Source: Eledone cirrhosa (Eukaryota). Taken from it: a stretch of 64,000 nt of DNA. The position numbers and the translations under genes were made by a program. Under the pieces are notes generated by a model. It did no database searches. It saw only the letters and a program-made list of their open reading frames with translations, and had not been told where the DNA came from. The DNA is taken from positions 318,060,001 through 318,124,000 of the forward strand of contig OZ024742.1 of the NCBI GenBank assembly GCA_964016885.1, given 5' to 3'. This document shows, piece after piece, positions 13,631-62,804 of this stretch (position 1 is its first letter; each line of letters opens with the position of its first letter).

Positions 13631-14350
13631 TTGAAACACTTGGGTTTTCGTGGGGCATAACTACAGTTTAGTGTCCCTGTCCCGACTTTGTTTCCTTATA
13701 ACTCTCTTAATAAGGCATATTTTTTTAATGGCATTTTTTGGTAAATACGTTTTTCGTTATCTACATTCCGATTATATTGATGAAAATCATCAATTATTTT
13801 TCTTTTTTTTGTGGGGGGAGGCGGGGTCATTATTGTATTCGTTAATTCTTTCATTTTTTTATAGATATTTTATTTTTAATAAATCAATCAGTTATATAAT
13901 ATAAATAACATTATAAATATTGATGGAAATATAAAAGAAAAAACAAAACCAAGCAACGAACAGAGGGGGGAAGGCGTAAAAAGGGCAAATCTGGCTGTAT
14001 AAGAAAGTAGGAGAAAGGGATATAAATGTTATAAATGAGAGGAAAAGGCGGGAAAGGCAAGTATTATGAGGCCACGGGTGAAAAGGAGTGGGTGATAGGA
14101 TGTATGCCTGAGGCGGGGCGTTCAATTATTGAATACTTTCGATCTATATTTGTAACAGTAGTAGACTAAAAGTACACAGAACTATCTTTCCCCCTTGTGT
14201 CGCGCCTGTAACTGTATCAAAGAAATTTAATTATCGTACATAAATTTAAAAACATTAATGACATATATATATATATATATATATATATATATATATATAT
14301 ATATATGCTTTATCGTTTCCTTGAACTATATATATATATATATATATAAC

Positions 14351-14552
14351 GAAGGAAATGTGGTAAGGAACCAGATGGACCATAACGCACCAAAGTACTC
14401 AATACTTAGGGTAGTAGAGTGGGTAATAGGAACGAGTAGGACCCCGACGGCTGAGCTCAAGCCGTTTCGACGGCTAATTCTGGACGCTCTGAGTCCAGAA
14501 TTAGCCGTCGAAACGGCTTGAGCTCAGCCGTCGGGGTCGTACTCGCTCCTAT
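14351..14552. mobile_element. Very short palindromic Penelope-like insertion carrying a hammerhead 3' half
   Basis: 60-bp arms 14426-14485 and 14493-14552 (2 mismatches); contains GAAAC-GGC-TTGAGCTCA-GCC-GTC; duplicated target on both sides. Confidence 0.65.
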
Positions 14553-15697
14553 ATATATATATATATATGCTTTATCGTTTCCTTGAACTATATATATATA
14601 TATATAACTTCAGCCAAATTCTAACTAGGAATTGTTTAACCCGAGGCTGAGGTAGAATATATTTGCCCAAGGCAATGAAGCGAACTTCTTATCCTCACAG
14701 AACTAAGCCGGTACACATGTTTTAAGTTTTAGAGGTTTAATGTTTAAGGCTTAAATTCGTGGATTAAAAGTTAGAATACATATCGAAGTGGAATGGAAAA
14801 GTTATACATACAGGTATTAAATTCGAAAATTCTAACCATCCTAAAACTAAAAAAGCCCAGCTGAGGGCACAAATAAATTGCTACGGCCGTCGCTGGAGGG
14901 GCCTCCGCTGCGGGGGACCCGGGGCAACTAATTGCACCTTTGACGAGTTGTAGTGCACCTGAGCACTTTACACAATAATTTCATTTTTTTTTTTATTATT
15001 ATTATTATTTGCCCTGCATTAAATCCGGTCCTGACCATGATGTGGGAGGGAGCAAAAGAGTCACTGACTGTAGCGTCTCAAATGAGACACCTGCTTCTTG
15101 CTACCATGTCTTTTATTTTTCAAAAATGTGATTTGAGAGACAGGTTTGGCTGTTAATTGCAATAGATCTAGCGACCGCGTAGATGTTCCTTTTTTGTGCT
15201 CGTGTAATGTTGTGGGGCTGCATAGTAATCGATGCTATTTTAAGTTAATCTTTTCGGCTGCATATTTCTAACGAAGAACACAGAATATGATTTTCAAATC
15301 ATTTTGAAAATAACCAAGAATAAAGATTTTTCTCATTATAAAGCTGGTTTTCCAAACGAAACTTAACAAAGGTCCTTTCATAAAATGATGATGGAAGGTT
15401 TTCACATAAATATAAACATTTTGAAATAGTTTTGTAACGTAGAACCAGGGACGGTTTAAGAGGTGCGTACGCAAAAACTTTTTAATACTATTTTCTATTT
15501 CACTTTCTCGATAGAGCTGTTATTTATTTTCTATATAACAATAAAGCTTTGTTTTTTAAAGGAAGAGGGCTTGTTCCCTTAAAGAATAGATAGAAATTAT
15601 GAAATTTGATTTTGCAAACATTAGAAAATATCGTATAGGCGTTAGGAATTCCTCCCATTTAGTACAGTGCTGAATATTTGAATATATCAAATTATGG

Positions 15698-15860
15698 TCA
15701 GGTCAGGCTTCTGCTGGCTACTGGTATCATGTAACCCAGTATAACCTGCTTCATGGTCGAGCGGTCGGCGACCAAACCCTTGTGGGGTGGGGAAGGTATG
15801 TGGAATCCCAGCAGCACAAAAAAAAAAGTTGTTAAAAGGGCGGATGAACTCCTTATAGCT
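15698..15860 (+). mobile_element. Diverged 5' segment of the retroposon family at 39095
   Basis: Shares the GTCAGGTCA start, TACTGG...CCAGTA and CATGGTCG...GGCGAC with 39095-39180. Confidence 0.55.
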
Positions 15861-61038: not shown

Positions 61039-61265
61039 ATGGTTTCTGTAAACAGCCGTATGTATGTATGTATGTATGTATGTATGTATGTATGTATGTA
61101 TGTATGTATGTATGTATGTATGTATGCATGTATGTATGTATGTATGTACGTACGTATGTATGTATGTATGTATGTATGTATCTATGTATGTATGTATGTG
61201 TGTGTGTATATGTACGTACGTACGTATGTATGTATGTATGTATGTATGTATGTATGTATGTGTAT

Positions 61266-61577
61266 GACTTGTTCTTCTTTTTGGTAAATATCATCTTGGT
61301 CAAGAGAGTGGGACTGGCTTTGTGCAGTGCCTTTGCTCACTATAAAAGCTTCACGGCACAGGCATTGCTTTATATCTGGAGACCTCTCTGCACTTGTCGT
61401 CACATGGTACCATGGGCCCAGCACTATGTGTCAATAATTATCACAGGTGTAGTGTTTGTACCAGAGTTTTCAAGTCGCTGGCTGGACTAAAAAGTCACAC
61501 TCGTTCAGCGCATCGGTAGGGGTTCTCCTACATGGATATAAAGTAGTGGCCGTACTCGAAAACGAGTTGGCAGCCAC
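61266..61577 (+). mobile_element. 5'-truncated copy of the 590-bp retroposon
   Basis: Near-identical to 39371-39681; flanked by (TATG)n. Confidence 0.75.
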
Positions 61578-62804
61578 CATGTGTGTGTGTATATGTACGT
61601 ACGTATGTATGTATGTATGTATGTATGTATGTATGTATGTATGTATGTATCTATGTATGTATATATTACAAGTTTTTTTTCGCTAAAATGTAAATTATTT
61701 ACGAAAGATCTGTCGTCTCTTCTGCGTCATCTTCCAACGTGTTGTGAGATGAAACGTTAGTAATTAATTTAGCTTTCAGCTAAAATAAAGATTTATACAT
61801 CATACTCTAGTTCGTTATAAACTTGTATTGAGTTACTTTTCAAAGTATGTGGTTATTTTTTCTAACAAACAAATATATTTTCATGTATATATCGATATGT
61901 TTATGAACAAAATAGACAAACATTGTGTAGATGCGTGGTTCGGTTACAACGTTTTTATGGTTAATATATAAATTGTGGTAGCTTTTCATAATAAAAGCAA
62001 ATAAATTTCAAATTCTTATATATTTATATATATGGGAAACAGCTTTTATTTTAGACATGTATGGAAACCACAATTGTTTATTAGAAGACGAGTAGTAGTG
62101 ATGATGAAGCTAAAATCTGCAGCTGAAATAGCAGAACTATTTGAAGTAAAAGAATTGACATAAACGAATGAATGTATATATTAGAGAATCTCTGATGAAT
62201 TTAGAATAAGTATACCTACTCCTACACCTCATATAAACTCTGAATAAACGAATGTAAATACATTATTATTCTCTTCGTACTACATACGCTTTACTACGTA
62301 TAAATATTTATTATTTAATTAATCATGTCGCTAGACAATGCTTGGTAAGCTATTTCAACCAAATCTTGGTTCGTGTTTGATGTACATAGTTGTATAGTTC
62401 TCTTTGTGAACAGAAAATTGGATTACTTGTTTTCTGATAAACAGCCAATAAGGTGTAAAATATGTAAAAGCGATGCTACTATTTTTCTCTGTAAGAAAAG
62501 ATTAATAAAAACATTTGTATTTTCACAGCGAGGGTTATCATTTAAACTGTAGGTATATCTATGATAAATATTTCTCAGATTTTTCAAATATGTGCTGGTG
62601 TGCGCGCGCGCACACACAAACACACACACACACACACACACACATGTATGTATAAAGTTATATATATGAAATGTAGTTGTTCCACCGCAGATGACTATAA
62701 TATAAATGATAGTTGAAAAGTTCGAATGCCGGACAAATATGTTAATCAGTACGCTAAGATGTGCCGGACCACTGATTGTCGTCTTGCACAAGATTCTTAG
62801 ACTT

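What the first reader, a model, noticed from the sequence alone, without database searches (positions are those of the whole stretch)
14260..61660. Five retroelement clades each occupy a particular microsatellite: possible target-niche partitioning
Seen: nearly all young non-LTR insertions lie in simple repeats, and the motif tracks the clade. Penelope-like pieces and CR1-like copies are in (TA)n, most RTE copies in (TA)nTGGATATGTG, four Tx1-like copies in (GATA)n, and two Dong-like copies in (TACA)n. Old decayed CRE and RTE relics, SINEs and MITEs lie in ordinary sequence. Known: Dong targets (TAA)n and some Tx1 families target microsatellites. Inference: APE, RLE and GIY-YIG endonucleases have converged on different microsatellite safe harbours, and repeated insertion may enlarge the targets.
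Basis: partly seen in the sequence, partly recalled or inferred. Interest (0 to 1): 0.75.

Follow-up and report, generated by a model that had tools for sequence, protein, structure and literature searches.

The report
Retrotransposon families target microsatellites by strand
In this likely octopod genome, young jumping-gene families sit inside particular short DNA repeats, likely because their enzymes cut and prime there, but three of the five groups share the TA repeat and related families switch or share repeats, so there is no one-repeat-per-group partition.

Summary
Microsatellite targeting is real, genome-wide and not a tail artefact. 5' junctions: Dong-like 26/28 in (CATA)n (background 0.5%), Tx1-like 20/29 in (TATC)n (0.02%), RTE 21/30 and CR1-like 13/26 in (TA)n (5.7%); 27/30 Penelope-like ends in (TA)n; control SINE 4/104.

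The 'five clades, five niches' reading fails. (TA)nTGGATATGTG is a local array (121 genome-wide matches, 40 in this window; 0/30 RTE ends carry it). Penelope-like, CR1-like and RTE all use (TA)n. Sister Dong and Tx1 families use (AAT)n/(ATT)n. Most tracts are empty (3/119 CATA tracts carry a Dong end), so competition is not evident.

Both use (TACA)n on the strand opposite to Dong, or (TA)n. The target goes with family and strand, not clade.

Microsatellite targeting is known (Dong, Kibi, Koshi, Waldo, Neptune/Naiad). CATA for Dong, GATA for Tx1 and TA for CR1 were not found in nine literature searches. The scan had already noted the CATA, GATA and TAA cases elsewhere in this genome.

The parts
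14349..14549 (.). Short fold-back element between (TA)n runs, with a duplicated flank; Penelope-related or non-coding passenger (label inferred)
   Evidence: nearly all of 44 sample hits abut (TA)n
20349..21034 (-). RTE family A 3' piece ending in (GAT)n inside the local TGGATATGTG array
   Evidence: 93.5% to 49353-50010
21078..21169 (.). Penelope-like end fragment in the TA-rich array
21280..21839 (.). Tail-to-tail RTE family A 3' pieces; 21648-21839 duplicates the 20349 junction
21870..23206 (+). RTE family B, 5'-truncated; RT end plus PHD finger; (GAT)n tail
23207..25880 (.). (TA)nTGGATATGTG array, essentially locus-specific
34603..36948 (-). Penelope-like element: RT, CX4CX2C linker, C-terminal VVY..YIG endonuclease motif, inverted 5' piece; (TA)n on both sides
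   Evidence: 3,748 exact end matches; 27 of 30 ends in (TA)n
39095..39682 (+). Family H: ~600-bp non-coding retroposon whose 3' half derives from a C2H2 zinc-finger LINE end; in TA/TATG
44590..44652 (-). CR1-like 3' end inside a duplicated block (also 41360-41410 = 45087-45136); not an independent insertion
45901..48311 (-). CR1-like copy, 5'-truncated, short tandem tail, (TA)n on both sides
   Evidence: 3,770 exact ends
48776..50036 (+). RTE family A copy; TA array on the 5' side, (GAT)7 then a short hairpin on the 3' side
   Evidence: 3,439 exact ends
50536..51697 (-). Three stacked 5'-truncated Tx1-like family A pieces separated by GATA units
51789..51945 (-). Tx1-like family B 3' piece in (GATA)n
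55500..55690 (-). Abundant SINE used as negative control; not microsatellite-bound
57772..58669 (-). Dong/R4-like family B, 3' piece with CCHC and PD..E motifs; (TATG)n on both sides
58837..61057 (-). Dong/R4-like family A, RT plus RLE-type C-terminus; (TATG)n on both sides
   Evidence: 3,986 exact ends
61265..61579 (+). 5'-truncated family H copy in the same (TACA)n tract as Dong A, facing the other way

Best explanation
Young non-LTR retrotransposon families in this genome lie inside pre-existing microsatellites with a family-specific motif and, in the non-palindromic repeats, a fixed strand, likely because each family's endonuclease nicks that repeat and the RNA 3' end pairs with the nicked strand to prime reverse transcription. 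Shown: Dong-like families read (CATA)n on their sense strand at both ends; Tx1-like A/B read (TATC)n; Penelope-like, CR1-like and, more loosely, RTE families share (TA)n; family H and a zinc-finger LINE read (TATG)n or (TA)n, opposite to Dong; sister Dong and Tx1 families end in (AAT)n and (ATT)n. Inferred: the nick position, the role of 1-3 nt tail-target overlap, and the safe-harbour benefit. The target is a labile family trait, with sharing as common as separation; it is not a clade-by-clade partition.
For: 5' junctions: Dong 26 of 28 CATA vs 1 TATG; Tx1 17 of 29 TATC (20 of 29 after extending three full-length copies); RTE 21 of 30 TA; CR1 13 of 26 TA; background CATA 0.5%, TATC 0.02%, TA 5.7%. 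3' flanks of 30 each: Dong 26 CATA, Tx1 17 TATC, CR1 26 TA, RTE 16 TA, PLE 27 TA. SINE control 4 of 104 and 5 of 105 TA. H: TATG at 16 of 30 5' and 10 of 30 3' flanks, CATA at 0 of 60; partner LINE 12 of 20 TATG; Dong vs H strand P 6e-11. Sister families on AAT (2 sample hits), ATT (3) and TAG (1). Non-periodic target duplications at several Tx1 copies. APE domains by Pfam in Tx1 and CR1, weakly in RTE; RLE and GIY-YIG motifs read from translations.
Against: No cleavage assay and no empty alleles. RTE is loose: 12 of 30 3' flanks are 'other', and only 7 of 25 sample hits are TA. CR1 5' junctions are 'other' in 10 of 26. Older Tx1-A-like hits in the sample were mostly not in TATC (1 of 5). The pattern-search loci are the first matches on contig 1, not a random draw. 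Target duplications cannot be read for Dong (2 of 28 informative).
Confidence: 0.8

Rival explanations
1. Clade-level niche partitioning: each of five clades holds its own microsatellite, shaped by competition for safe harbours.
For: Dong A/B and Tx1 A/B do use different rare motifs with almost no cross-over; the family x motif table is strongly non-random (chi-square P 3e-47).
Against: PLE, CR1 and RTE share TA (RTE vs CR1 P 0.17); the RTE motif is local; within-clade switches and cross-clade sharing; 3 of 119 CATA tracts and 1 of 28 TATC tracts (3 by eye) have an element end directly upstream.
Confidence: 0.07
2. The repeats are element tails, or are synthesised at both ends during insertion by RT slippage, and so are products rather than targets.
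For: RTE and CR1 carry true repeat tails ((GAT)n and a short tandem unit). Some Tx1 3' flanks have only 1-2 TATC units, and 2 Tx1 copies have a long TATC tail with an unrelated 5' flank (L009, L013).
Against: Same motif and strand at random 5' truncation points (Dong 26 of 28); imperfect flanks duplicated on both sides; most tracts exist without any element.
Confidence: 0.08
3. Passive accumulation: elements insert broadly and survive in microsatellite-rich, neutral regions.
For: This window is microsatellite-rich (25% vs 7.5%); passive accumulation has been argued for Drosophila Waldo (PMC3812793 passage). It could contribute to the loose RTE bias.
Against: Base-precise junctions, strand asymmetry, motif specificity for repeats at 0.02-0.5% background, and a co-resident SINE at background level.
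Confidence: 0.05

Closest known systems
Dong (Bombyx mori), DongAg, DongBg, ostracod Dong; R4 clade (PMC3812793 and PMC7998251 passages)
   Same: Single ORF with RT and RLE-type C-terminus; inserts in a microsatellite; sister families here end in (AAT)n as known
   Different: The window's two families use (CATA)n; this target was not found for Dong in the searches
Kibi (TC)n, Koshi (TTC)n, crocodilian Tx1 on (TTCC)n/(TTTC)n (PMC4494074 passages)
   Same: APE plus RT L1/Tx1-group elements specific for a microsatellite
   Different: Target here is (TATC)n/(GATA)n, with sisters on (ATT)n and (TAG)n; invertebrate host
Waldo (R1 clade) on ACAY microsatellites (PMC3812793 passage)
   Same: ACAY includes (ACAT)n, the same repeat as (TACA)n
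   Different: Waldo is an insect APE element; here an RLE element and a likely RTE-type family share this repeat on opposite strands
Neptune and Naiad Penelope-like elements (PMC8557442 passages)
   Same: (TA)n bias stated for Naiads, microsatellite bias for Neptune; CX2-5CxxC linker; tandem and inverted copies
   Different: Nothing essential; C-terminal endonuclease here, so not Naiad; clade not tested by tree
RTE-clade insertion signature (PMC6007223 abstract and Discussion) and bipartite non-autonomous RTEs (PMC5786205 passages)
   Same: Microsatellite tail with loose T/A-biased insertion; H resembles an internally deleted LINE derivative
   Different: Bias here is towards (TA)n or (TATG)n arrays; H keeps a decayed zinc-finger coding remnant

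Membership tests
R4/Dong clade | Single ORF with RT followed by CCHC and a restriction-like endonuclease | tested here: met
   1174-aa open frame, Pfam RVT_1 and zf-RVT; CxxC..H..C, RHD and PD..E motifs read (motif meaning recalled); best PDB hits are R2 proteins
R4/Dong clade | RT phylogeny within R4 | not tested
   No named reference sequences were held
Dong (TAA-specific) | Insertion in (TAA)n | tested here: not met
   Window families are in (CATA)n; only divergent sisters end in (AAT)n
Tx1 clade | ORF1 plus ORF2 with APE, RT and C-terminal zinc finger | tested here: met
   643-aa ORF1; Exo_endo_phos, RVT_1, zf-RVT
Tx1 clade | RT phylogeny with Tx1/Kibi/Koshi rather than other L1-group clades | tested here: inconclusive
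   Homologue search gave mostly unnamed hits; 'Transposon TX1' names only on distant plant hits at 22-24%; no tree with references
CR1 clade | ORF1 plus APE-RT ORF2 and a short tandem-repeat tail | tested here: met
CR1 clade | RT phylogeny separating CR1 from L2/Crack/Daphne | not tested
   Label rests on recalled C-terminal motifs
RTE clade (families A, B) | APE-RT frame, microsatellite tail, about 3.5 kb | tested here: met
   Longest copies about 3.4-3.6 kb with (GAT)n tail; RVT_1 strong, APE only partial and weak at E 0.004; clade label recalled, no tree
RTE clade (zinc-finger partner of H) | RT with RTE-type C-terminus and APE | tested here: inconclusive
   Only the 3' 391 aa were seen: weak RVT_1, C2H2 fingers, 27% to window RTE B; endonuclease not seen
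EN+ Penelope-like element (Neptune-type) | RT, CX2-5CxxC linker, C-terminal GIY-YIG, pseudo-LTR with tandem and inverted copies | tested here: met
   Motifs read; inverted 297-bp repeat; 4,147-bp tandem units; Pfam did not detect GIY-YIG; clade not tested by tree
Target-specific non-LTR element (over 20% of flanks in one sequence type, PMC4494074) | Motif in flanks above threshold and above background | tested here: met
   All six families
Target-specific non-LTR element (over 20% of flanks in one sequence type, PMC4494074) | Sequence-specific cleavage by the encoded endonuclease | not testable with these tools
   Needs a biochemical assay

The most novel reading that the evidence does not exclude
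Non-palindromic microsatellites in this genome are divided by strand, not by clade: an RLE element (Dong) takes one strand and an APE element the other, independently in (TAA)n (Tx1-like) and in (TACA)n (zinc-finger RTE-like LINE plus the 25,000-copy element H), while palindromic (TA)n is a commons. The recent target switches within both lineages would give a natural series for mapping how RLE and APE elements change specificity.
Probability: 0.3. Interest if true: 0.65.

Novelty: new variant of a known kind. Interest (0 to 1): 0.42.

Why it matters
Microsatellite targeting is known from scattered families. One genome with thousands of young copies of at least six families, on four repeats, with sister families that switched target, makes the question of what sets non-LTR target choice (endonuclease, DNA-binding domain, or RNA tail pairing) directly testable by comparing close relatives. 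It may also matter for repeat annotation and for the evolution of long microsatellite tracts in cephalopods. The headline idea of clade-level niche partitioning does not hold.

Tried and rejected
DNA search with the Dong A end found nothing because common words are skipped; patterns were used instead. The Dong B pattern matched only the window copy, so Dong B rests on scattered relatives. The Rfam scan was swamped by microsatellite matches to miRNA models and gave nothing on hammerheads; ribozyme motifs were not tested. Pfam did not detect GIY-YIG. The homologue search gave no named Tx1-clade reference, though its closest named hit was an octopod protein (65%). Trees of 200-aa C-termini (15 and 16 rows after dropping near-duplicates and rows without a recognised end) split the two AAT Dong rows from Dong A/B (100/100) and placed the ATT/TAG Tx1 pair among TATC rows; they are unrooted, short, have many rows labelled 'none' by a strict rule, and are only suggestive. 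The TSD script over-calls in imperfect arrays (CR1 11 of 26, some Tx1 rows), so only hand-read examples are used. Rejected: TGGATATGTG as an RTE target; the second CR1 piece and the third RTE piece as independent insertions; the repeats as pure tails.

Full report
Setting. The window is 31% GC with a 200-N gap and lies on contig 3 of a 3.0-Gb assembly. The finding's span is 25% perfect microsatellite, against 7.5% in 99 evenly spaced 10-kb stretches.

Observation in the window. Reading the sequence, self-comparison, Pfam and translation confirm two Dong-like copies of different families with (TATG)n on both sides, four Tx1-like 3' pieces each bounded by GATA units, a Penelope-like element with an inverted 5' piece in (TA)n, and one CR1-like copy in (TA)n. 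Some 'copies' are pseudo-replicates. The CR1 end at 44590-44652 and the 47-bp piece at 41364-41410 are 100% identical to pieces at 45907-45957 and 45090-45136 in the same order, i.e. a duplicated block. The RTE piece at 21648-21839 repeats the tail junction of the copy at 20349 (98%). The RTE at 48776-50036 does not end in the TGGATATGTG array.

Genome-wide test. Exact 3'-end patterns match 3,986 (Dong A), 3,770 (CR1), 3,439 (RTE A) and 3,748 (Penelope) places. I analysed 30 loci each: the first 30 matches on contig 1, and for Tx1 30 of the 40 best DNA hits across contigs. 37 of these were extended with longer stretches. A flank was called when runs of 7 bases or more of one motif covered at least 40% of 30 bases. 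Background from 5,000 random windows: TA 5.7%, CATA 0.5%, TATG 0.5%, TATC 0.02%, GATA 0.06%.

5' junctions: Dong 26 CATA, 1 TATG, 1 other of 28 (2 ran off the locus); Tx1 17 TATC, 4 TA, 8 other of 29, becoming 20 TATC when three full-length copies were followed to their true start; RTE 21 TA of 30; CR1 13 TA, 2 CATA, 1 TATG, 10 other of 26 (4 ran off; 3 'other' rows lay inside the element's own 5' region). 3' flanks of 30: Dong 26 CATA; Tx1 17 TATC (27 have TATCTAT within the first nine bases); CR1 26 TA; RTE 16 TA; Penelope 27 TA plus 3 internal tandem junctions (several are the two ends of one insertion). The abundant SINE was at background: 4 of 104 5' and 5 of 105 3' flanks TA. The motif therefore sits at random 5' truncation points on the same strand as at the 3' end, which refutes the tail explanation. 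Several Tx1 copies show duplicated imperfect flanks of about 14-20 bases (L016, L019, L025, L030). RTE is the loosest family: 7 of 25 sample hits had a TA 3' flank by the strict rule.

What fails. The (TA)nTGGATATGTG 22-mer has 121 matches in the genome, 40 in this window, none within 30 RTE anchors or the 99 sample stretches; it is a local variant array. Penelope-like, CR1-like and RTE elements thus share (TA)n, the commonest repeat (4.2% of bases in the first 40 stretches); RTE and CR1 do not differ in TA use (P 0.17). After earlier scan notes pointed to TAA sharing, I searched my own DNA with C-terminal proteins. Divergent Dong relatives (29-32% identity) end in (AAT)n in 2 sample hits; Tx1 relatives end in (ATT)n in 3 and (TAG)n in 1; 4 of 25 ATT tracts carry a Tx1-type end. 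The target therefore changes within a clade and is shared between clades. Occupancy is low: 3 of 119 CATA tracts and 1 of 28 TATC tracts (3 by eye) have a recognised element end directly upstream, which gives little room for competition.

A sixth family. The segment at 39095-39682, repeated at 61265-61579, is a ~600-bp non-coding element ('H') with a fixed 3' end, variable 5' truncation and 24,690 exact end matches. In 30 loci its flanks were TATG 16, TA 5, other 9 (5') and TA 16, TATG 10, other 4 (3'); CATA 0 of 60. Its 3' half encodes a decayed C2H2 finger 68% identical over 22 residues to the last finger of a LINE found beside it, which has a similar 3' terminus. That LINE has 4,816 exact ends, and 12 of 20 3' flanks are TATG, 4 TA. 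Its RTE label and its role as mobiliser of H are inferred. Dong (CATA 26: TATG 1) and H (0: 16) use opposite strands of the same repeat (P 6e-11), and the window's tract at 61058-61666 holds both.

Mechanism. Shown: motif, strand and both-sided flanks. Established background: in target-primed reverse transcription the endonuclease nick sets the site (PMC4494074 passage), and RNA tail-target pairing can contribute (PMC6007223 Discussion). Domains: APE in Tx1 and CR1 by Pfam, partial in RTE; RLE-type motifs in Dong (best structure hits R2); GIY-YIG-type motif with a CX4CX2C linker in the Penelope element (not detected by Pfam), a linker proposed to mediate microsatellite bias in Neptune elements (PMC8557442 passage). 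Inferred: Dong nicks the (TATG)n strand, Tx1 A/B the (GATA)n strand, H and its partner the (CATA)n strand; the TA users combine a TpA preference with 1-3 bases of tail overlap. Stacking of Tx1 copies likely follows because each insertion leaves target on both sides.

Comparison and novelty. Known: Dong on TAA, Waldo on ACAY, Mino on AC, Kibi on TC, Koshi on TTC (PMC3812793 passages); crocodilian Tx1 on TTCC/TTTC; Dong on TAA in most insects, molluscs and cnidarians (PMC7998251 passages); the safe-harbour idea, Togen on TG (PMC4640811 passages); bipartite RTE derivatives (PMC5786205 passages). The octopus LINE paper mentions RTE and Dong elements but no target analysis in the passages seen (PMC9115989). 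Nine searches did not surface Dong on CATA, Tx1 on GATA, CR1 on TA, or a multi-family target table for a cephalopod. Kojima and Fujiwara 2003/2004, Repbase entries and all supplements were not seen and may hold such notes.

Verdict. Observation partly confirmed; interpretation partly supported. New targets and a strand-sharing pattern for a known behaviour; interest 0.42.

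Noticed in passing
window 6690-10894: Young Ty3/gypsy-type LTR retrotransposon (LTR match 99.6% over 232 bp; zinc knuckle, protease, RNase H, integrase by Pfam) lying in ordinary sequence.
   Followed up: partly
window 21870-22900 and 48776-49650: Both RTE families carry a PHD finger just after the RT domain (Pfam E about 1e-6); its role in targeting is unknown.
   Followed up: no
window 23215-45903: A 22.7-kb TA-rich tract spanning the assembly gap at 33488-33687 and containing a duplicated block (about 40690-44652 and 44653-45957); may be partly an assembly artefact.
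   Followed up: partly
L047 (minus strand, near base 4400 of the reverse complement): A divergent Tx1-like relative ends in (TAG)n, a further target motif.
   Followed up: no
L163-L166 (contig 1, 14.38-14.40 Mb): Penelope-like element in head-to-tail tandem with a 4,147-bp period; its 3' ends stop at about three discrete points.
   Followed up: partly
L293:3412-4611: CR1-like ORF1 has a weak Myb/SANT-like hit (E 0.004), a possible DNA-binding aid.
   Followed up: no
window 14349-14549, 20026-20123, 34210-34475, 38490-38660: Short elements in (TA)n with hammerhead-like motifs by eye (recalled motif); the Rfam scan was uninformative.
   Followed up: partly
window 50047-50086: Short inverted repeat with a central TA run directly after the RTE tail.
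   Followed up: no
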